From IMG/VR virus record IMGVR_UViG_2778261538_000003: a stretch of 42,281 bases of DNA. One strand, 5' to 3'. A program made the translations under genes and the position numbers. Positions 26,125 to 40,214 of the stretch are shown piece by piece. Within the stretch, counting starts at the first letter, position 1. The number at the start of each line of letters is the position of its first letter. This DNA is from a virus (Duplodnaviria; Heunggongvirae; Uroviricota; Caudoviricetes). Below the pieces are notes generated by a model. That model was not told the DNA's origin, searched no databases, and saw only the letters and a program-made list of their open reading frames with translations.

Positions 26125-28386
26125 TTACAATCCAGATTGCAAAATTTCGCAAGATTTATATATTTCGCGCAATTCTTCGTTGCTGAAATCGTTATTTTTT
26201 ACAAGAATCCAAATCCTATATACAAACCCGTCAATTTTTACGCGTACGGGTTCCCGCTTTGTTCTTTCTTTCAAAATGCGAGTAATATGCTTCTGGTTAA
26301 TTTCTACATCCATTCCTGCTTCTGCCAGTATTGCGTTAACAATTTGTTGATAAGTCATTGCTGGCACAGGCGGATTATCCAGGATTTCAATAAGAGCAGC
26401 CTCCACATCGCTCTTATTGCTTTCAATCATCAGAAGGCGTTCTTTCGTCTCGGGGGCGCGCTGCCAGTTAAAGCGAGACAGGTCAACGCCCATCAGATAC
26501 CAGTACACCTGGGCGATAAAGTCGCTGTCGCTTAGCGCACCGTACAGGCTGGCGTAATGCTCTTCAGTTGCGGCGAAGTCAGGGCCCCCCAGCACAGCGA
26601 TACGTCGGTCTTCCTCTGGCAGCGCCAGCGCATCAAAGTGGTTGGTGTAGAACAGAAAGCCGGTGTATATATCCATCGTTTTTTTGCTGCCATATTTGCG
26701 GTTCACTTCAAACCGTGGTTCTGTCAGCACGTCACGGATCTTATCGTTCACCTCATACCGCTTATCATTTTCGCGCACCTCGTCAATGGTGCATAGAAGC
26801 GTATTGTACAGATAGTCATGGAACTGGTTATCGCACAGGATCTTCATGCGAGTACGAGCACAGTTCCACGGACCAAGCACGCGCTCCATTAACTGGCTGA
26901 CCCATCCTCTGCCCGTACCATGTGCGGAAGCCACATGCAGAATAGAAATCGGGCATCGACGCTCCGGACGCTGAACCATCCACCCCAGACGGGCGATGAA
27001 AAACTCGCGCTGCCAGGCATCAGGTACCAGATACGCCATATGATTAAGGAACGTGGACACCTTACTTGTATCCGCTGTACGTGGATGCTCAGGCATATAA
27101 AATTCGTTTATCTCAAACCGCCCGTCGAAACGCTCGATAATACGTCCCGCACCGGGCTTATAGCCTGTCGTCTCAGCAATCTTCTTATGCCGATGCTCTA
27201 TCCACCGTTTGGTTGCGGGAGTTGGTTGCCCTTTCCCTTCTGGCGGGAACTGGTAAGGCGCCATCAGGTTTTTGAACGACTTCATATCCATCATGCACTG
27301 ATATGGCGGTCGGCTAAGATCACATACCTGGTCACCCTCGATGACGTAGATAAAGCGTTCCAGAAAATGAGCTGTCATATCTGTATTAATATCGGTAAAT
27401 TCAGGCTTATCGCCATCTTCAACCACCGTGAGATCTTCGAACAGGGATTGCGTATAGCCGTAGCCTTCCAGCCAGTCGGCATCAGTAAGCCCCGCATCGG
27501 TGTTGTGCATGCTTTTAAAATGTCCCTGTTCAAATCCCCCCGTCCCTTTTGGGAAATACTTAATGGATGTTTCGCTGCAACCGTTGCTGTATTCTGACTC
27601 ATCCCGAAACGGTTTCAGATTGCGGGAACCATCAGAGCTGACTGACAGAGTCCACCCGTTCGCGTCAAGCCAGTCGGCGACATCATCTGTCGCGGAAGGA
27701 TCAACACAGGAAAGATCACGCTGACGTCCTGCACCTGCGGTATAGCTGTCTTTCACGGGTAAGTTATCCGCCAGACGCTGCCACAGGCTTTCGAGCTGTT
27801 CAGATGTAATTTTCAGAGGTTCGCCGGGCAGACCGCAGTCCCACTGAATACGTTCGCCTGCCGGATGGGTACCACAAGCCACAAACTGCTGGCCCTTAGC
27901 GAGCAGCTCTATTTGTTTGTTTTCGCCTTCCAGGCGGTGACCACGTTTACGGTAGTCGCCATCAACAGCAATCAGGTACAGGCATTTATGACTGTCAGCC
28001 CGCCAGCGACGTGGCGGAAGTTCCCCCAGGCATGACAGGATAATATTGCGTACGATCTCCTGCATCCCGGCGTCATTGATATCGCAGTCCAGAGCCACCA
28101 CCCCGTCGCCAGTACGAACGCAAATACCGTAATCGGGTTCGTTCGACCACCGGGCAAAATCGTTTTCCGTAACAACATAGTTAGCCCAGTCGGGGATACC
28201 AACAACCTTACGTTGGCCATTGTAGCGACTGGGGGTTTTGCCGAAATTATGAGACAGCTTGCTATTAGGCGACAGTTCTGCACAGGGATTGGACACCACA
28301 GGTAAAAGCCTGTCTGTCATCCCCAACACCAGATCGAAGTGGAACCACTCATCGGGCGTAGCTCCCCATGGTTTGTTATCAGACAT
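26125..28386 (-). CDS. replication protein with N-terminal Prim-Pol (AEP-type primase-polymerase) domain and C-terminal primase/NTPase-like region
   Basis: Motifs GDGVVALDCDIND, SHKCLYLIAV and IELLAKGQQFVACGTHPAG fit the three Prim-Pol motifs; 753 aa; next to the iteron array. Confidence 0.65.
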   Translation of the reverse strand: MSDNKPWGATPDEWFHFDLVLGMTDRLLPVVSNPCAELSPNSKLSHNFGKTPSRYNGQRKVVGIPDWANYVVTENDFARWSNEPDYGICVRTGDGVVALDCDINDAGMQEIVRNIILSCLGELPPRRWRADSHKCLYLIAVDGDYRKRGHRLEGENKQIELLAKGQQFVACGTHPAGERIQWDCGLPGEPLKITSEQLESLWQRLADNLPVKDSYTAGAGRQRDLSCVDPSATDDVADWLDANGWTLSVSSDGSRNLKPFRDESEYSNGCSETSIKYFPKGTGGFEQGHFKSMHNTDAGLTDADWLEGYGYTQSLFEDLTVVEDGDKPEFTDINTDMTAHFLERFIYVIEGDQVCDLSRPPYQCMMDMKSFKNLMAPYQFPPEGKGQPTPATKRWIEHRHKKIAETTGYKPGAGRIIERFDGRFEINEFYMPEHPRTADTSKVSTFLNHMAYLVPDAWQREFFIARLGWMVQRPERRCPISILHVASAHGTGRGWVSQLMERVLGPWNCARTRMKILCDNQFHDYLYNTLLCTIDEVRENDKRYEVNDKIRDVLTEPRFEVNRKYGSKKTMDIYTGFLFYTNHFDALALPEEDRRIAVLGGPDFAATEEHYASLYGALSDSDFIAQVYWYLMGVDLSRFNWQRAPETKERLLMIESNKSDVEAALIEILDNPPVPAMTYQQIVNAILAEAGMDVEINQKHITRILKERTKREPVRVKIDGFVYRIWILVKNNDFSNEELREIYKSCEILQSGL

Positions 28387-28389
28387 GGG

Positions 28390-28590
28390 TTACGCCTTTT
28401 GTCTAGCTGTCACTTCCTGAAAAAGCTTTTCTATCGCACGTACTGTAGAAAAGCGAGGGTCAGAATGAACCCCGGTGAGAAGCCGACTAATAGAAGACTG
28501 CTTCACGCCTGCAATTTCGGCAATTTGGTTTTGGGTATACCCTGAATCAATCAAGCTTTTGACCATCTCTTGTGGTGTTAGTCCGGACAT
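28390..28590 (-). CDS. Cro-like HTH transcriptional regulator
   Basis: 66 aa with HTH (TQNQIAEIAGVKQSSISRLLTG); divergent from the CI-like gene, first gene of the minus-strand early operon. Confidence 0.7.
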   Translation of the reverse strand: MSGLTPQEMVKSLIDSGYTQNQIAEIAGVKQSSISRLLTGVHSDPRFSTVRAIEKLFQEVTARQKA

Positions 28591-28731
28591 ATTTAAGTCT
28601 CCACTTTCGTCTATAGCGCAAATTTATACGAAAACGGATTATTCAGCAATACGGCAATTCTATATCATCCTGGATTAAAATATCCGATAACGCATAATCA
28701 CCGTCCCTGTATACAACATGGATGAATCCAA

Positions 28732-29406
28732 ATGATTGATACTACCGATATCCTTTCTCAAAACATCAAGTACCTGATGGACAAAGCCAAGATAAGCTCG
28801 ATAACTGAGCTGGCACGTCGGTTACAACTGAACCAACCAACGCTACACAGGCTGGTATCAGGAGAGGTGAAAGATCCGAAATACGCAACGTTAAAGCAGA
28901 TCGCCGACTACTTCCACGTGTCACCAATAGACCTGGCAGAAAGGAGCCTTCAAGAAATGGAGAAAGAGGACGCGACGGGTATAAAAACGTATATTTCTCT
29001 TAGGTTTAATAAAGTACCTGTTTTGGGAAACACTCAGCTAGGCGTTGGAGGACTTTGGAGCGACACCCAATATTCAGTAGGTAGCAGTGATGGTTTCATA
29101 TACTGGCCGACAAAGGATGAAGATGCATACGCCCTGAAATGTGTTGGTGATTCAATGATGCCTAGAATCAAAGAGGGTGAGTTCGTAATCGTCGAACCCA
29201 ACCACGACTACACTCCTGGTGATGAAGTACTTGTGGTTACCCGGGACGGTGAGGTCATGGTTAAAACCTTCTTGTTCGAACGCGATGGCCTGTTCCATCT
29301 AATGTCTGTAAATGAAGATCATCCACCAGTCAGAGTACCACGCGAAAACATTGAAAAAATCCATTACGTGGCGGGGATCGCCAAATCCGCGCTACGCATG
29401 TACTAA
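28732..29406 (+). CDS. CI-like repressor (N-terminal HTH, C-terminal LexA/S24 autopeptidase domain)
   Basis: HTH near the N-terminus; S24 Ser/Lys dyad context CVGDSMMPRI ... VMVKTF. Confidence 0.9.
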   Translation: MIDTTDILSQNIKYLMDKAKISSITELARRLQLNQPTLHRLVSGEVKDPKYATLKQIADYFHVSPIDLAERSLQEMEKEDATGIKTYISLRFNKVPVLGNTQLGVGGLWSDTQYSVGSSDGFIYWPTKDEDAYALKCVGDSMMPRIKEGEFVIVEPNHDYTPGDEVLVVTRDGEVMVKTFLFERDGLFHLMSVNEDHPPVRVPRENIEKIHYVAGIAKSALRMY

Positions 29407-29436: not shown

Positions 29437-29469
29437 AAACCGCTCTCCACAAGGGCGGTTTTCTTATTT
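29437..29469 (+). terminator. rho-independent terminator downstream of the CI-like gene
   Basis: AAACCGCTC-tccacaag-GGCGGTTTT followed by CTTATTT on the plus strand. Confidence 0.5.
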
Positions 29470-29490
29470 GCAAAATAATTCATTTTCGTA

Positions 29491-29519
29491 TTGACGCAAA
29501 ATCCCATAACGCATATAAA
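29491..29519 (+). promoter_or_regulatory. near-consensus sigma70 promoter (TTGACG - 17 bp - TATAAA)
   Basis: -35 at 29491-29496, -10 at 29514-29519; points into an ORF-free region; the spacer contains the 10-mer ATAACGCATA also found upstream of the CI-like gene. Confidence 0.5.
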
Positions 29520-29781
29520 TACGATGCCGCATAATTAATGCGTTTTTTAATACCAGCTCTTTAACAAACTGAACCGCGTGACAGGTAAGCCGCAGTACTC
29601 CTGGCAAAATGAAATGGCACCCGATGGGATCGAGGTAAGCGCCGAGTCCGTATGCGTACGGTAAGCGTAGAGGACAACACCGCGACGAACTGATAAGTCA
29701 CGCAAGTTGAAACGCCCCGACGATGGGGCGCTTAGTTCCTTTAACTCTGGGTGGCCGGAAGGGTACCCATGCTTAAAGAAA

Positions 29782-30351
29782 TTACTGGTTGTAAGGATCG
29801 TAATCCGTGATTGCCTTCCCCGGATTTTCATCTTCAGCAGGCAGTCTGGCCTCTAAAGCATTTCGGTTGAACAGATAGGAAGCCCTACAGTGCGAACAAA
29901 CCATATTAACGGCTCGCCCAAGGCCTGGCTTAATAACCAGACCTTCCGCTTGCAATATAGATTTTCTCTTTTGCTCGTAGCAATTGGGACAAATATAAAC
30001 CGGAGATTGGTCAGTATCTGCAGAAAGCTTGCTGCGATAGACCAGAGTACCCCGCATAGGCTGGTAAAGTTCATAGCTCGCCGCTTCAGCGGCCCAGTTC
30101 TCTTGCTTTACTTTCTCATTTTCCAGTTCAACAATTTTCTCCTTAGCCGCAATCAGCAGCTCCTGAAGCGACATTTGCTGCATCTGAACATCCATTAGCT
30201 TATCGAGTAAGGTGTGCGTCTTCTCTTTAACTGCATAGTCGACAGTCAGATTCTGAATCTCTCTTGCTGCTCCAACCGCGCCTTTAATTGCTCCTCCCAC
30301 GCCGGATAACGATTCAGTTATCCGGGAAAGAATTCCTTTTTCTTCAGACAT
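29782..30351 (-). CDS. hypothetical coiled-coil protein with C-terminal CxxC...CxxC zinc ribbon
   Basis: 189 aa; ATG with GAGAG upstream; CPNCYEQ...CSHCRA; transcribed opposite to both the CI-like gene and the early-left operon. Confidence 0.5.
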   Translation of the reverse strand: MSEEKGILSRITESLSGVGGAIKGAVGAAREIQNLTVDYAVKEKTHTLLDKLMDVQMQQMSLQELLIAAKEKIVELENEKVKQENWAAEAASYELYQPMRGTLVYRSKLSADTDQSPVYICPNCYEQKRKSILQAEGLVIKPGLGRAVNMVCSHCRASYLFNRNALEARLPAEDENPGKAITDYDPYNQ

Positions 30352-30481
30352 ATCTAATCTCTCTCAAACTGTAGGGGTGAAGAGATATTAGACGATTTCT
30401 CACTGTAGGGGTACAAGGAGAACCACCTCGCCTGATGTGGTTAAAAGCAGGCACTCGATGATATCCATGTAATTGCTGTGT

Positions 30482-30507
30482 GTAGTCTTTGCCCGCCGCA
30501 AATGACG
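30482..30507 (+). terminator. rho-independent terminator preceding the early-left operon
   Basis: GCCCG-ccgcaaatga-CGGGC followed by TTTTTT on the plus strand. Confidence 0.6.
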
Positions 30508-30554
30508 GGCTTTTTTATGTCTGAAAGCGCACTCGCAACAGCGCGCTCCCCGAT

Positions 30555-33544: not shown

Positions 33545-34174
33545 TCACTCAGGAATCTTAATCTTTCTCAATTCTTTATTTAGTTCACAGATCTTTTTCT
33601 TAGACGGGAAAGTATCATACATCCAAAAACCAACAGTCTCTAAAACTATTATCATAACCATATACACAAGATAATTTAAAAGGCCTTCATTTTGCCCTAT
33701 GGAAATAATGCAGATAATAGAAAAAAGGGTAAACAGCACAAAACACAGAAAGGAAAACAGACGACTAATAATAAATAAAAAACCTGAAAAATCAACATTA
33801 ATAAAAAACACTCCGTTATCTTTCTCTATATAATTCTGAAGCTTAATCAACTGATTTATATACTGTCTTTTTTCTAATCTATTGCAAATGTAAATAACAT
33901 CTCTTCGGTTATAAGAGGATTGCAATTTCAGCGCATCACGAATAATTTTATCATTTATTCTTTTTTCTATGGCTTTCTTATCCTCCTTATCCAGATAACG
34001 TTCATACTTAATTAAATATAAAATTAACTTCTTGACATATTTAGGCTCTTTATACTTATAATTAAAAATGATCTTTCTTATCCAGACTCCCATAACAATC
34101 AAACATGAAAAAATATATCCAGCTATTTTCTCCAGATGCTCTGTATGGTCAATCAAGTATTGGATCATATGCAT
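33545..34174 (-). CDS. hypothetical membrane protein (very AT-rich cargo gene on the opposite strand)
   Basis: 209 aa, Lys/Ile/Tyr-rich with one N-terminal and two to three C-terminal hydrophobic helices; GC far below the flanking genes. Confidence 0.55.
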   Translation of the reverse strand: MHMIQYLIDHTEHLEKIAGYIFSCLIVMGVWIRKIIFNYKYKEPKYVKKLILYLIKYERYLDKEDKKAIEKRINDKIIRDALKLQSSYNRRDVIYICNRLEKRQYINQLIKLQNYIEKDNGVFFINVDFSGFLFIISRLFSFLCFVLFTLFSIICIISIGQNEGLLNYLVYMVMIIVLETVGFWMYDTFPSKKKICELNKELRKIKIPE

Positions 34175-36348: not shown

Positions 36349-37110
36349 ATGCAGGAACTAACTGAAATGCCGATCAACTATCCATACCCGAGAGAATCTT
36401 TTCCTGACTTTTTGAGGGAGTGTGGGTTCACCAATTTTTCCCACGAACAGCGTGAGACTTATGACTGCTATCGTTTAACGAATGGCGTAATTGTTAACCT
36501 TTACACCACCCGGACCATTCAGTTTCAAGGGAACCCTCAAGAACGTCCCAATGTTGAAACTGCAATAATGTCCCATTTAGGAACGCCCCCCACGGCAACA
36601 CCACTAGCCGTAGAACAGCCATCTGAGCTTCCCAAAAAGATATTCATTGTTCACGGCCATGACCATACTGCAAAGGAACAACTTGAGCTAATCCTTCATA
36701 AACTTGGATTACCAGACCATTTCATTTTGCAGAATACGGGAGGGACTGGACTCACCATTATTGAAGAGCTTGAACGTGAAATTGGGCAAGGACAAACTGC
36801 TACTCGTTTCGGGATTGTTCTTTTGACACCTGATGATATGGGATACTCAAAGCGCGCCGGTGAAGCAGAAATCCAACCCCGCGCAAGACAGAACGTTGTA
36901 CTCGAGATGGGTATGCTTCTTTCGTCCTTAGGGCGCAGCAATGTAGCAATCCTTCAGAAACAGCACCTAGAACAGCCTTCTGATGCTAACGGGATTTTGT
37001 ATCTGAATTTCAACGACCATGTACGTGAAACAGTTCCTCGTCTAGTGCAACGGTTACAAAATTCTGGTTTCGAATTTACACAAGCTCAAATAGCTAACGC
37101 TTCCTCGTAA
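36349..37110 (+). CDS. TIR-like domain protein (COG4271-type) with unknown N-terminal domain
   Basis: C-terminal half carries KIFIVHGHD ... FGIVLLTPDD ... RARQNVVLEMGML ... VAIL, matching the TIR-like nucleotide-binding fold as recalled; own terminator downstream. Confidence 0.6.
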   Translation: MQELTEMPINYPYPRESFPDFLRECGFTNFSHEQRETYDCYRLTNGVIVNLYTTRTIQFQGNPQERPNVETAIMSHLGTPPTATPLAVEQPSELPKKIFIVHGHDHTAKEQLELILHKLGLPDHFILQNTGGTGLTIIEELEREIGQGQTATRFGIVLLTPDDMGYSKRAGEAEIQPRARQNVVLEMGMLLSSLGRSNVAILQKQHLEQPSDANGILYLNFNDHVRETVPRLVQRLQNSGFEFTQAQIANASS

Positions 37111-37839: not shown

Positions 37840-38757
37840 ATGGCTAAGCAACAAACGAAAGAAATAAACCAAGATGATGTAAAAGACAACAAAAATATGC
37901 CACCTCATATATGCGGCATTATTATGCCAATTGCGGACATAGAAGGTTATCCCACTGGACATTGGAGAAATGTTCATGACATTATTTGTGAAGCATCAAA
38001 TGATGCCGGATTCAAGGCAAATTTGGTAAGTTCAGATGATGATGTTGCAGTAATACAAAAACGAATTGTTCAAAATCTTTATGAAAACCCCATAGTTGTT
38101 TGCGATATAAGTGCTCGAAACGCTAATGTAATGTTTGAATTAGGAATGCGTCTCGCATTTGACAAACCGACCGTAATTATTAAGGACGAGCGCACTCCTT
38201 ATAGCTTTGACATTTCATCAATTGAACATTTAGAGTACCCTTCGGATTTAAGATACCAATCAATCAATTTATTCAAAGAAAGACTTGCGAGCAAGATAAA
38301 AGAAACATATTTAAAGTCAGTAACTGATCCTGAATACACAACATTCCTCAAACATTTTGGCACTTTCAAAGTTGCACAACTAGACCAGAAAGAAGTATCA
38401 GAAACTGAGTATCTGGCATCTGAGATTAAAGATATCAAATCATTATTGATATCTCTTAGGGCAACAGCAACGACAAAATCCAGATTTTTCGACTCACCGA
38501 AAAATTACTCGCAGCAGGAAATTGACAACTCTGTAGATATTATTAAAAATGGAGTTGCCAGTTATACTATAAGGAGTGAAGGATTTAGTATATCAAAATC
38601 AGCACTAGAAAAGTTACGCCAAAGACTACACAACGCAGGATTTCAAGTCGAGCAAATAGTATTGACAGGAAAAGAAGTAATTATTCATCTGTCATCACCT
38701 TTAATAAATGAAGAAGAAAATATTTTTAAAGATGCAATAGTAACAGCACTATTATAA
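37840..38757 (+). CDS. NDT/TIR-superfamily domain protein with unknown C-terminal domain (AT-rich cargo gene)
   Basis: N-terminal ...NPIVVCDISARNANVMFELGMRLAFDKPTVII resembles the nucleoside 2-deoxyribosyltransferase-like / TIR-like catalytic strand-Glu motif; low GC; own hairpin terminator. Confidence 0.55.
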   Translation: MAKQQTKEINQDDVKDNKNMPPHICGIIMPIADIEGYPTGHWRNVHDIICEASNDAGFKANLVSSDDDVAVIQKRIVQNLYENPIVVCDISARNANVMFELGMRLAFDKPTVIIKDERTPYSFDISSIEHLEYPSDLRYQSINLFKERLASKIKETYLKSVTDPEYTTFLKHFGTFKVAQLDQKEVSETEYLASEIKDIKSLLISLRATATTKSRFFDSPKNYSQQEIDNSVDIIKNGVASYTIRSEGFSISKSALEKLRQRLHNAGFQVEQIVLTGKEVIIHLSSPLINEEENIFKDAIVTALL

Positions 38758-38819: not shown

Positions 38820-40214
38820 ATGCCCCCAAAATATATACCTCGCCCCTACCAAGTTCTCATTATCAACCACGAAACCGAAACCCTGCGCGGCAACATCTGG
38901 GCGGGGATGGGAATGGGTAAAACCGTGGCAACGCTCACTGCGCTGGAAGATCTCTTTATGGCAGGGGCAGAAACATGCCCCGCACTGGTCCTCGCGCCGC
39001 TGCGCGTGGCTGCCAGCACATGGCCGGATGAAGCACTGAAGTGGGGACATTTGCGCAATATCGAGGTGCAGCCAATTATTGGTAATGCCAAAGCGCGCTC
39101 TATGGCGCTGACGAACAGCAACGCAAGCGTGTTCACCATCAACTACGATAACCTTGTCTGGCTGATTGAAGAATTGGGAGAACGATGGCCGTTCGGTACT
39201 GTCATTCCAGATGAAAGCACCCGGCTAAAATCCTTCCGGCTGCGCGGTGGTGGTAAGCGCGCGGCGGCGCTGGGCAAAGTGGCGCATAAGTATGTCCGGC
39301 GCTGGATAAATCTCACCGGTACGCCAGCACCGAACGGCCTGGTAGATTTGTGGGGACAATCGTGGTTTGTGGACCAGGGGCAACGTCTCGGGCGCACTTA
39401 CGGCGCGTTTACCTCACGCTGGTTCAACTCGATACAGTTTCCGGGGCAGAGCTGGACCAAACTGGAGCCTTTTGCTCACTCACAGGGTGAAATACAGCGA
39501 GCGTTAGCCGATGTAACCCTCTCGCTGGATGCGGCCGACTGGTTCGATATCAAAGACCCCATCCATAACGTAATCCGCGTGGATATGCCACCGAAGGCCC
39601 GTCAGCAGTATCGTGAAATGGAAAAGGAAATGTTCCTCGAGCTGAATGGCGAAGGCATCGAAGCACCGAACGCCGCGGCAAAGACACTGAAGTGTCTGCA
39701 AATCGCCAGCGGCGCAGTATACACAGATGACACCGGAAGTTGGTCAGAACTGCATGACACCAAACTACAGGCGCTGGACAGCATACTGACCGAAGCAGCT
39801 GGCGCACCTGTGCTGGTTGCTTATCACTGGAAACACGATCTTGAACGCTTGCTTAAAGCATTCCCTCGCGGTCGTCACCTCGACCAGGATCCACAGACAC
39901 TGCGCGACTGGAATTCCGGAAAGATTCCTGTTCTCTTTGCACACCCAGCCAGCGCGGGCCACGGCCTGAACATGCAGGACGGCGGAAATATACTGGTATT
40001 TTTCTCACACTGGTGGGACCTGGAGCAATATCAGCAAATTATTGAACGTATCGGCCCCACCAGGCAGATACAGGCCGGACACAATCGTCCGGTATTTATT
40101 CACCACATTATTGCTGCCGACACTATGGATGAAATGGTGATGGAGCGGCGCAACTCAAAACGAACAGTGCAGGACATCCTGCTCGATGCCATGAAAAAGA
40201 GAGGTATAGCATGA
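38820..40214 (+). CDS. SNF2-family helicase/ATPase
   Basis: Walker A GMGMGKT, DExx box VIPDESTRL and a C-terminal helicase region; 464 aa. Confidence 0.85.
   Translation: MPPKYIPRPYQVLIINHETETLRGNIWAGMGMGKTVATLTALEDLFMAGAETCPALVLAPLRVAASTWPDEALKWGHLRNIEVQPIIGNAKARSMALTNSNASVFTINYDNLVWLIEELGERWPFGTVIPDESTRLKSFRLRGGGKRAAALGKVAHKYVRRWINLTGTPAPNGLVDLWGQSWFVDQGQRLGRTYGAFTSRWFNSIQFPGQSWTKLEPFAHSQGEIQRALADVTLSLDAADWFDIKDPIHNVIRVDMPPKARQQYREMEKEMFLELNGEGIEAPNAAAKTLKCLQIASGAVYTDDTGSWSELHDTKLQALDSILTEAAGAPVLVAYHWKHDLERLLKAFPRGRHLDQDPQTLRDWNSGKIPVLFAHPASAGHGLNMQDGGNILVFFSHWWDLEQYQQIIERIGPTRQIQAGHNRPVFIHHIIAADTMDEMVMERRNSKRTVQDILLDAMKKRGIA

What the first reader, a model, noticed from the sequence alone, without database searches (positions are those of the whole stretch)
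29782..30351. Oppositely oriented zinc-ribbon coiled-coil gene wedged between the repressor and the early operon
This 189-aa protein is transcribed against both neighbours, in the position where lambdoid phages keep superinfection-exclusion genes (rexAB, sieB). Its coiled coil plus CxxC...CxxC ribbon does not resemble those proteins by eye. It is a candidate lysogen-expressed exclusion or defence factor.
Basis: inference. Interest (0 to 1): 0.5.

Follow-up and report, generated by a model that had tools for sequence, protein, structure and literature searches.

The report
Prophage Rip1-family pore-forming defence gene
The flagged gene is a previously unannotated member of the recently described Rip1 family, in which a small prophage protein senses ring-shaped assembly proteins of an invading phage and punches pores in the host membrane, so it is a real defence candidate but of a known kind.

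Summary
The 189-aa ORF at 29782-30351 (minus strand) is real. It lies convergent with the CI repressor gene and divergent from the early replication operon. The window is 100% identical to E. coli prophage vB_EcoM-606R2, where the gene is annotated 'hypothetical protein'.

Pfam and PADLOC (2023) find nothing. The protein matches PDB 9oox, 'ring interacting pore 1 (Rip1)' of phage HK446 in complex with T6 small terminase (E=8.5e-48, 52% identity, full length). The AlphaFold model superposes on it (TM 0.89, 2.1 Å). It falls in phrog_1244 together with HK446 Rip1.

It keeps the family hallmarks: an amphipathic Gly/Ala-rich N-terminal helix, a long helix, and a four-Cys domain invariant in 149/149 family representatives.

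Like its homologues in HK446, HK620 and JBD30, it is a swappable cassette set antisense in a phage operon. A second CI-operator cluster with a promoter lies upstream of it.

Best reading: a lysogen-expressed, Rip1-type abortive-infection pore. Activity, trigger and expression are untested for this allele.

By-products: a covarying structured leader RNA, an RprA 3'-end copy and a PDC-S35 TIR gene.

The parts
29782..30351 (-). rip1-like CDS, 189 aa (stop codon TAA at 29782-29784)
   Evidence: ORF list. phmmer against PDB 9oox_L Rip1 gives E=8.5e-48 over residues 3-166. phrog_1244 E=6e-40. 52% identity to HK446 gp37.
30250..30339 (-). Codons 5-34: N-terminal amphipathic, Gly/Ala-rich helix (SGVGGAIKGAVGAA), the presumed membrane-inserting pore element
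   Evidence: AF2 helix 7-34. Hydrophobic moment 0.38 against a shuffle mean of 0.18; 1.8% of shuffles reach it. HK446 Rip1 shows the same profile. The role is assigned by analogy to the Rip1 description in PMC13434031.
30082..30237 (-). Codons 39-90: long central helix
   Evidence: AF2 helix 39-90, pLDDT about 80-88. Heptad periodicity is not significant.
29854..30075 (-). Codons 93-166: C-terminal beta-rich four-cysteine (zinc-ribbon-like) domain, the presumed ring-binding half. Cys codons are at 29989-29991, 29980-29982, 29896-29898 and 29887-29889.
   Evidence: The four Cys are invariant in 149/149 family representatives; W86, Y93 and Y105 are conserved. Foldseek to 9oox_M: E=5.6e-11, TM(target) 0.89, rmsd 2.1 Å.
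29785..29853 (-). Codons 167-189: disordered C-terminal tail ending in TDYDPYNQ
   Evidence: pLDDT below 50. The motif is shared with alleles P0004 and P0010 and with JBD30 gp30, which ends ...RYDPFS. HK446 Rip1 lacks it. Many family members end in acidic/aromatic tails.
30352..30468 (-). Cassette-specific upstream region (5'UTR and presumed promoter): SD-like GAGAGAG at 30359-30365, candidate -10 TAATAT at 30385-30390, flanked by two exact 11-nt direct repeats at 30368-30378 and 30402-30412
   Evidence: Read directly from the sequence. Repeats. The region is 83% nt-identical to the UTAK-2 allele, although the CDS is only 51% identical, and it is absent from the GF4 prophage. No consensus -35 is present and the promoter scan did not call it.
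29713..29730 (.). 6-bp all-GC hairpin immediately 3' of rip1: probable terminator of the rip1 transcript, also the 3' hairpin of the + strand leader RNA. It marks the left cassette boundary.
   Evidence: Read from the sequence. The hairpin is kept through C-G to U-G changes in relatives. It was not called by the terminator scan because the T-run is weak.
29731..30468 (.). Swappable 'moron' cassette holding rip1 and its upstream region
   Evidence: Three-way alignment. Flanks are 93-98% identical. The interior is replaced by a 68-aa phrog_16707 ORF in strain GF4 and by a 45%-identical rip1 allele in strain UTAK-2.
29475..29535 (+). Second CI-operator-like cluster (17-mers at 29475-29491, 29501-29517 and 29519-29535) overlapping a sigma70-like promoter, TTGACG 29491-29496 / 17 nt / TATAAA 29514-19. 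Inferred to be the CI-repressed rightward early promoter, upstream of and antisense to rip1.
   Evidence: The same 17-mers occur in the cI/cro intergenic region at 28626 and 28682. There are 8 matches in the window against 1.28 expected, and 5 of them fall in these two clusters. Promoter read from the sequence.
28732..29406 (+). CI-type repressor gene (context); its terminator is at 29437-29461
   Evidence: Pfam HTH_26 + Peptidase_S24 and phrog_4. Terminator scan.

Best explanation
The gene encodes a Rip1-family ('ring interacting pore') prophage defence protein.

Proposed mechanism, step by step:
1. In the lysogen, CI keeps the rightward early promoter at about 29491-29519 shut. The rip1 cassette is then transcribed from its own upstream region on the opposite strand (inferred).
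2. The protein stays harmless in the cytoplasm (by analogy with Rip1).
3. When another phage infects and reaches late gene expression, its ring-shaped small terminase or portal oligomer is bound by the C-terminal four-Cys domain. This templates a ring of about 12 Rip1 subunits (by analogy with the HK446 Rip1-T6 TerS cryo-EM complex).
4. The N-terminal amphipathic Gly/Ala-rich helices insert into the inner membrane as a pore. This kills or lyses the cell before progeny mature, that is, abortive infection (by analogy).
5. During the prophage's own induction, strong early transcription running antisense across rip1 may silence it (inference from gene layout).

Shown here: homology, fold, conserved motifs, cassette architecture and operator layout. 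Not shown: expression, activity and trigger.
For: Sequence:
- phmmer of the protein against PDB hits only 9oox 'ring interacting pore 1 (Rip1)', E=8.5e-48 over residues 3-166. A family profile gives E=2e-66.
- Identity to HK446 gp37 is 85/164, or 52%.
- The window protein, HK446 Rip1 and the UTAK-2 allele all fall in phrog_1244.
- hhalign to Pseudomonas phage JBD30 gp30 gives probability 99.7%, E=3.7e-27. That gene lies between the terS-like and terL genes, as the founding P. aeruginosa Rip1 is described.

Structure:
- The AF2 model (pLDDT 72) matches 9oox_M with E=5.6e-11, TM 0.89 (normalised to the target) and rmsd 2.1 Å.

Motifs:
- Four Cys invariant in 149/149 representatives; W86, Y93, Y105 and L76 conserved and present.
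- The N-terminal helix is amphipathic, as in HK446 Rip1.

Context:
- Prophage-borne in 49 of 5426 complete E. coli genomes.
- A cassette with sharp boundaries, exchanged between related prophages.
- Antisense orientation within a phage operon recurs in HK446, HK620, JBD30, and the Yersinia and P0004/P0010 loci.

Published function of the family:
- PMC13434031 section 5, PMC12908700 and PMC13601566, all citing Patel et al. 2026, Nature 651:1060.
Against: - Nothing is measured for this allele: no phenotype, no trigger, no oligomer.
- A residue that is His in 93% of the family (position 118, three residues before the first Cys; His in HK446) is Val here.
- No consensus sigma70 promoter was found upstream, so lysogenic expression is an inference.
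- Identity to the characterised protein is only 52%, so trigger specificity may differ.
- PADLOC gives no hit, although that database (2023) predates the family.
Confidence: 0.8

Rival explanations
1. It is a Rip1 homologue that has lost or changed its defence role in this phage lineage. It could be an inactive relic, or an allele whose partner is no longer a terminase or portal ring.
For: The 93%-conserved His118 is replaced by Val here, and by Ile in the nearest relatives. Identity to the characterised protein is only 52%. The promoter is non-consensus.
Against: The ORF is intact and nearly identical across dozens of E. coli genomes. All four Cys and the other near-invariant residues are kept. 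Divergent alleles (45-64% identity) occupy the same slot in related prophages, which suggests diversifying maintenance rather than decay.
Confidence: 0.1
2. It serves the phage's own cycle rather than host defence. Examples would be an auxiliary lysis or lysis-timing pore gated by the phage's own terminase or portal, or a true superinfection-exclusion protein that blocks DNA entry.
For: Pore-forming chemistry is compatible with lysis functions. HK620 hkaP was annotated 'putative superinfection exclusion protein'. JBD30 gp30 sits among packaging genes.
Against: The gene is antisense to every surrounding lytic operon in all contexts seen, which argues against co-expression with lytic genes. The phage has its own holin, endolysin and Rz genes. 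Its own TerS is a Terminase_2/SF6-type protein unrelated in sequence to the T6 TerS in 9oox. The published phenotype is late-acting abortive infection.
Confidence: 0.06
3. It is a zinc-ribbon nucleic-acid-binding regulator, for example an anti-repressor or transcription factor of the immunity region.
For: Four-Cys ribbons often bind DNA or RNA. The gene lies in the immunity region, next to operator-like repeats.
Against: No match to any Pfam or NCBIfam DNA-binding family. The match to a solved pore/ring-binding protein is strong and full-length. The local ACTGTAGGGGT repeats are not the CI operators and occur only in this cassette.
Confidence: 0.03

Closest known systems
Rip1 of Escherichia phage HK446 (gp37, YP_007111990.1; PDB 9oox, complex with T6 small terminase)
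   Same: Full-length homology (52% identity, E=8.5e-48) and the same PHROG. Same three-part architecture: amphipathic N-helix, long helix, four-Cys domain. The model superposes at TM 0.89 and 2.1 Å. Both are prophage-encoded and sit antisense inside an early operon near the immunity region.
   Different: HK446 Rip1 is 164 aa and lacks the 23-residue tail ending in DYDPY. It has His where this protein has Val118. It sits beside gene N in a lambdoid (Hendrixvirinae) phage. This one lies between cI and a DUF2800/gp2.5-SSB/PolA replication operon of an unrelated temperate phage type.
Rip1 of Pseudomonas aeruginosa prophages (casadabanvirus gene between terS and terL, e.g. JBD30 gp30, D3112 orf25)
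   Same: Profile-profile probability 99.7% over 162 columns. The four Cys are shared, as is the C-terminal YDP[YF] ending. Orientation is antisense to the flanking operon.
   Different: Only about 28-34% identity. It is located in the packaging module rather than the immunity/early region. Escape mutations there map to the portal protein according to the review.
HK620 HkaP (also HK629/HK630 HkaP)
   Same: Same family (tblastn E=7e-7), 164 aa, antisense in the PL operon, and historically annotated 'putative superinfection exclusion protein'.
   Different: About 29% identity. As far as I could find, it has never been characterised.
Lambda RexAB / SieB and P22 SieB (classical prophage abortive-infection genes of the immunity region)
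   Same: Same logic: prophage-expressed genes near the repressor that abort superinfecting phages by membrane depolarisation (established knowledge).
   Different: No sequence or fold relationship; the Pfam scan found no family at all. Rip1 is a single soluble protein that acts as both sensor and effector, and it is triggered by late ring oligomers.
Direct sensors of conserved phage packaging proteins (Avs1-3 for the large terminase; TerI for the small terminase)
   Same: They recognise conserved packaging-machine proteins as the infection signal (PMC13601566).
   Different: Avs proteins are large STAND NTPases with separate effector domains. Rip1 is about 160-190 aa and uses the trigger's oligomeric ring as an assembly template.

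Membership tests
Rip1 (ring interacting pore 1) family / phrog_1244 | Significant full-length sequence homology to an experimentally characterised Rip1 | tested here: met
   phmmer against PDB 9oox_L: E=8.5e-48, residues 3-166 against 3-162. Profile E=2e-66. 85/164 identical to HK446 gp37. hhalign to JBD30 gp30: 99.7%. The window protein and HK446 Rip1 share phrog_1244.
Rip1 (ring interacting pore 1) family / phrog_1244 | Fold of the ring-binding C-terminal half plus long helix as in the cryo-EM structure | tested here: met
   AF2 model against 9oox_M: Foldseek E=5.6e-11, probability 1.00, TM(target) 0.89, rmsd 2.1 Å over 128 columns. Model confidence is moderate (pLDDT 72).
Rip1 (ring interacting pore 1) family / phrog_1244 | N-terminal amphipathic helix (pore-forming element) | tested here: met
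   Helix 7-34 in the model. muH is 0.38 against 0.18 for shuffles, and 1.8% of shuffles reach it. HK446 Rip1 has a comparable profile.
Rip1 (ring interacting pore 1) family / phrog_1244 | Invariant CxxC...CxxC and other family-invariant residues | tested here: met
   C121, C124, C152 and C155 are invariant in 149/149 representatives. W86, Y93, Y105 and L76 are present. The exception is that the 93%-conserved His118 is Val here.
Rip1 (ring interacting pore 1) family / phrog_1244 | Encoded by a prophage as an independently oriented accessory (moron) gene | tested here: met
   The window equals prophage vB_EcoM-606R2 and all matches in E. coli are chromosomal. Cassette swap shown. Antisense orientation recurs in the HK446, HK620, JBD30, Yersinia and P0004/P0010 loci.
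Rip1 (ring interacting pore 1) family / phrog_1244 | Non-toxic alone; activated by oligomeric small terminase or portal rings; assembles a roughly 12-mer pore | not testable with these tools
   Known only for HK446 and P. aeruginosa Rip1, from PMC13434031 and PMC12908700.
Rip1 (ring interacting pore 1) family / phrog_1244 | Confers antiphage protection (abortive infection) on the lysogen | not testable with these tools
   No phenotype data exist for this allele. The source records are in silico prophage extractions.
Classical immunity-region exclusion genes (RexA/RexB, SieB) | Sequence membership in those families; integral membrane segments (RexB, SieB) | tested here: not met
   The Pfam-A scan returned no family at E<=0.01. 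The PHROG hit is phrog_1244 only. The model is helical plus beta-rich and soluble, with no hydrophobic transmembrane stretch.
Known defence systems in PADLOC-DB v2 (2023) | HMM match to any catalogued defence protein | tested here: not met
   0 families at E<=1. The database predates the Rip1 description, so this says nothing against Rip1 membership.

The most novel reading that the evidence does not exclude
This allele may be a functionally distinct Rip1 variant with its own control circuit.

- Val118 and the disordered tail ending in DYDPY are both absent from the HK446 protein whose structure was solved. They could retarget it to a different ring-shaped trigger, or provide auto-inhibition or self-immunity against the prophage's own SF6-type small terminase and portal.
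- Its expression could be gated by CI-controlled antisense early transcription. That transcript begins with a conserved structured leader RNA and ends in an RprA-like 3' module. This would couple defence to the lysogenic state and possibly to the host RprA/Hfq network.
Probability: 0.15. Interest if true: 0.55.

Novelty: new member of a known kind. Interest (0 to 1): 0.3.

Why it matters
- The result puts a name and a testable mechanism on a 'hypothetical protein' carried by prophages in about 1% of complete E. coli genomes. These include clinical isolates (human urine and other human sources).
- It shows that Rip1 genes also occupy a swappable slot in a non-lambdoid temperate phage type, between cI and a PolA/DUF2800 replication operon.
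- The divergent alleles in that one slot (45-64% identity) form a natural panel for mapping how Rip1 specificity for terminase or portal rings evolves.
- Rip1 alleles such as this one could limit therapeutic or typing phages in strains that carry them.
- It is not a new kind of system.

Tried and rejected
- **Family scans.** Pfam, NCBIfam and PADLOC scans of the protein gave nothing meaningful. NCBIfam returned only sub-threshold noise (StgD, YnfU-type zinc finger).
- **Coiled coil.** The heptad-periodicity test on residues 39-90 was not significant, so 'coiled coil' is not endorsed.
- **Promoter and terminator scan.** It called no promoter for rip1, and it missed both the hairpin 3' of the gene and the TTGACG/TATAAA promoter because of its strict rules. 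Those features were read by eye.
- **ACTGTAGGGGT repeat.** I tested whether it is the CI operator. It is not; it occurs only in the cassette. The CI-operator-like 17-mer is a different sequence.
- **Single-sequence folding.** The leader and the RprA-like region gave no energy signal, with z = +0.7 and +0.3. Only comparative analysis supported the leader structure.
- **Leader RNA in other sequences.** It was not found in other phage records or in the P0004/P0010/lambdoid loci.
- **Primary paper.** Patel et al. 2026 could not be read. No preprint was found, so functional claims rest on secondary summaries and the PDB entry title.
- **C-terminal tail.** It first looked like a lineage-specific addition. 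That was rejected, because JBD30 gp30 and other distant members carry similar acidic/aromatic ends.

Full report
**1. Observation**

The ORF is real. An ATG at 30351 opens a 189-aa frame on the minus strand that ends at 29782. A GAGAG ribosome-binding-like element lies 7 nt upstream.

The flanking genes are as follows:
- Left: a cro-like HTH gene (28390-28590, minus) and a primase-polymerase (26125-28386, minus).
- Left, adjacent: a CI-type repressor (HTH + Peptidase_S24; 28732-29406, plus).
- Right, all on the plus strand: a 56-aa membrane ORF, a phrog_6784 protein, a DUF2800 PD-(D/E)XK exonuclease, an Enc34/gp2.5-type SSB and a family-A DNA polymerase.

The window is 100% identical to the E. 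coli prophage record vB_EcoM-606R2 (ON470579.1), where the gene is 'hypothetical protein' URC08719.1. RefSeq also calls it hypothetical (WP_001551500.1).

**2. Identity**

Pfam, NCBIfam and PADLOC (2023) give nothing usable. PHROGs places the protein in phrog_1244, 'unknown function' (E=6e-40).

The decisive result is a search of PDB sequences. The only hit is 9oox, 'ring interacting pore 1 (Rip1)':
- E=8.5e-48 for the single protein, covering residues 3-166.
- E=2e-66 for a profile of 15 homologues.

Foldseek identifies 9oox as 'Escherichia phage HK446 Rip1 in complex with the Enterobacteria phage T6 small terminase'. An AlphaFold2 model of the window protein (pLDDT 72) matches chain M with E=5.6e-11, target-normalised TM 0.89 and rmsd 2.1 Å over 128 columns.

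Further sequence links:
- HK446 gp37 is 164 aa and 85/164 (52%) identical to the window protein. It falls in the same PHROG.
- The Pseudomonas casadabanvirus homologue JBD30 gp30 aligns with hhalign probability 99.7%. It lies between the terS-like and terL genes. This matches the description of the founding P. aeruginosa Rip1 in the review PMC13434031.
- An exhaustive profile search finds 3351 representative clusters at E<=1e-3. The family is therefore large, as the review says.

**3. Family features**

In an alignment of 149 representatives, the four cysteines (C121, C124, C152, C155) are invariant. W86, Y93, Y105 and L76 are near-invariant, and all are present here.

The model has three parts:
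- an N-terminal helix (7-34);
- a long helix (39-90);
- a beta-rich C-terminal domain (93-162).

Residues 5-34 are Gly/Ala-rich (SGVGGAIKGAVGAA) and amphipathic. Their hydrophobic moment is 0.38 against 0.18 for shuffles, as in HK446 Rip1. This fits the published description, in which the N-terminal amphipathic helix forms the pore and the C-terminal half contacts the terminase ring. A heptad periodicity is not significant, so I do not endorse 'coiled coil'.

There are two differences from the solved protein:
- The 93%-conserved His three residues before the first Cys is Val118 here. It is Ile in the nearest relatives.
- The protein carries a disordered 23-residue tail ending in TDYDPYNQ. HK446 Rip1 lacks this tail. 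It recurs in alleles P0004 and P0010, in JBD30 gp30 (...RYDPFS), and as acidic/aromatic ends in many distant members.

**4. Genomic logic**

Comparison with related E. coli prophages shows a cassette with sharp borders at 29731-30468:
- The flanks are 93-98% identical.
- In strain UTAK-2 the slot holds a 45%-identical rip1 allele.
- In strain GF4 the slot holds an unrelated 68-aa phrog_16707 gene.

More distant alleles (P0004 at 64% identity, P0010 at 51%) occupy the same slot, in the same orientation, in the same phage type. In lambdoid contexts (HK446, vB_EcoP-720R6, HK620, a Yersinia prophage) the homologue sits antisense next to gene N in the PL operon. HK620 hkaP was annotated 'putative superinfection exclusion protein'. 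Antisense placement inside a phage operon is thus a recurrent property of the family.

In this window the same layout holds, although it is less obvious. The 17-mer ATMCGAWAACGSATWAT occurs twice in the cI/cro intergenic region. It occurs three more times at 29475-29535, just after the cI terminator. There it overlaps a good sigma70-like promoter, TTGACG-17 nt-TATAAA at 29491-29519 on the plus strand. The window has 8 matches in all against 1.28 expected.

I infer that this is the CI-repressed rightward early promoter. If so, rip1 lies inside the early transcription unit in antisense. Two observations support this: related prophages have early-direction genes on both sides of, or in place of, rip1, and no CI-operator-like site lies next to the early genes themselves.

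This layout predicts that rip1 is free to be expressed while CI is bound. It also predicts that rip1 is opposed by convergent transcription once the prophage is induced. Both predictions are inferences, not observations.

The rip1 promoter itself is not consensus. The best candidate is a TAATAT at 30385-30390, flanked by two exact ACCCCTACAGT repeats. That region is conserved at 83% between alleles whose coding regions have drifted to 51% nucleotide identity.

**5. Mechanism**

By homology I assign the Rip1 mechanism as summarised in PMC13434031, PMC12908700 and PMC13601566, all citing Patel et al. 2026, Nature 651:1060:
- The protein is harmless alone.
- Ring-shaped small-terminase (11-mer) or portal oligomers of an infecting phage nucleate a 12-mer Rip1 ring.
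- The N-terminal helices of that ring form a membrane pore. This aborts the infection late in the cycle.

The prophage's own small terminase is a Terminase_2/SF6-type protein with no detectable sequence similarity to the T6 protein in 9oox. That is compatible with self-tolerance but does not prove it. I could not read the primary paper. I therefore could not check experimentally defined residues, or whether this subclade was tested.

**6. Rivals**

- An inactive or retargeted allele (Val118, only 52% identity) cannot be excluded. It is disfavoured by the intact conserved core and by the maintenance of divergent alleles in the same slot.
- A role in the phage's own lysis, or in blocking DNA entry, is disfavoured. 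The orientation is consistently antisense, the phage has a complete holin/endolysin/Rz cassette, and the published phenotype is late-acting.
- A nucleic-acid-binding regulator is disfavoured by the specific structural match.

**7. Verdict**

The finding is a new, unannotated member of a known kind. Its modest distinguishing features are the tail, Val118, and a new phage backbone and slot. Interest is about 0.3.

**8. By-products**

(a) The 128 nt at 29576-29703, plus the hairpin at 29713-29730, form a conserved plus-strand leader directly downstream of the inferred early promoter.
- It recurs at 86-98% identity downstream of repressor genes in unrelated E. coli prophages, and in Citrobacter, Pseudocitrobacter, Trabulsiella and Pluralibacter genomes.
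- A multi-helix structure is kept in 98.8% of cells, with four compensatory pairs. The covariation score is 0.126, against 0.078 for shuffles (0/500 reach it) and at most 0.062 for slid controls.
- Rfam has no match.
- It may be a cis-acting antitermination leader or an early sRNA.

(b) Positions 30471-30494 are identical to nt 59-82 of E. coli K-12 rprA. They are followed by a homologous terminator. The Rfam RprA model scores 50 bits, E=1.3e-4, which is below the gathering threshold. This module belongs to the phage backbone, not to the cassette.

(c) The early operon also carries a TIR-domain gene at 36349-37110. It matches the PADLOC candidate system PDC-S35 (E=1e-108) and Pfam CAP12/Pycsar TIR.

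Noticed in passing
window 29576-29730 (+): Conserved structured leader RNA directly downstream of the inferred CI-controlled early promoter. It has a multi-helix core closed by GCGUGAC/GUCACGC, followed by a GC hairpin. It is found at 86-98% identity downstream of repressors in unrelated E. coli prophages and in four other enterobacterial genera. Four compensatory pairs are seen, 98.8% of cells are paired, and covariation exceeds the shuffle and slide controls. There is no Rfam match. It could be a put-like antitermination element or an early sRNA.
   Followed up: partly
window 29475-29535 (+): Second cluster of three CI-operator-like 17-mers overlapping a TTGACG-N17-TATAAA promoter, just after the cI terminator. 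It mirrors the two copies in the cI/cro intergenic region at 28626 and 28682. This implies an OL/OR-like dual-operator layout and places rip1 antisense inside the early transcription unit. A short hairpin with a T-run (29528-29542) follows the predicted start site.
   Followed up: partly
window 30407-30520 (+), core 30471-30516: RprA-like element. 24 nt are identical to nt 59-82 of E. coli K-12 rprA, followed by a homologous terminator hairpin with one compensatory change and a U-run. Rfam RF00034 scores 50.2 bits (gathering threshold 70), E=1.3e-4. This 3' module belongs to the phage backbone and is also present where rip1 is absent. It could give a 3'-end-derived sRNA that mimics processed RprA, or it could simply be a borrowed terminator. 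I found no literature on it.
   Followed up: partly
window 36349-37110 (+): 253-aa TIR-domain protein inside the early operon. It matches Pfam CAP12/Pycsar effector TIR (E=3e-31) and the PADLOC candidate single-gene defence system PDC-S35 (E=1.2e-108). It is a second likely defence or counter-defence gene on the same prophage.
   Followed up: partly
window 33545-34174 (-): 209-aa ORF oriented against the early operon, between the SSB and DNA polymerase genes. It belongs to phrog_10579 (unknown function) and has no Pfam or PADLOC hit. It is another antisense moron candidate.
   Followed up: no
window 30368-30378 and 30402-30412: Two exact copies of ACTGTAGGGGT, 34 nt apart, bracketing the candidate -10 of rip1. 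They are conserved with 1-2 changes upstream of the divergent UTAK-2 allele, and they are not related to the CI operators. They may be a binding site for an unknown regulator. A 14-nt inverted match lies inside the rip1 CDS at 29883-29896.
   Followed up: partly
L005 2890-3096, L012 3234-3921, L008 5613-6815: The slot between cI and the early operon is a hotspot for accessory genes in related prophages. It variously holds small phrog_16707 and phrog_20574 proteins, an HNH endonuclease and unknown ORFs, instead of or alongside rip1.
   Followed up: partly
window 38820-40214 (+) and 37840-38757 (+): A SNF2-family helicase with weak PADLOC similarity to DpdE/ZorD/DrmD helicase components, and a 305-aa protein with a weak TIR-effector match (E=1e-6). 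Both lie downstream of the TIR gene.
   Followed up: no
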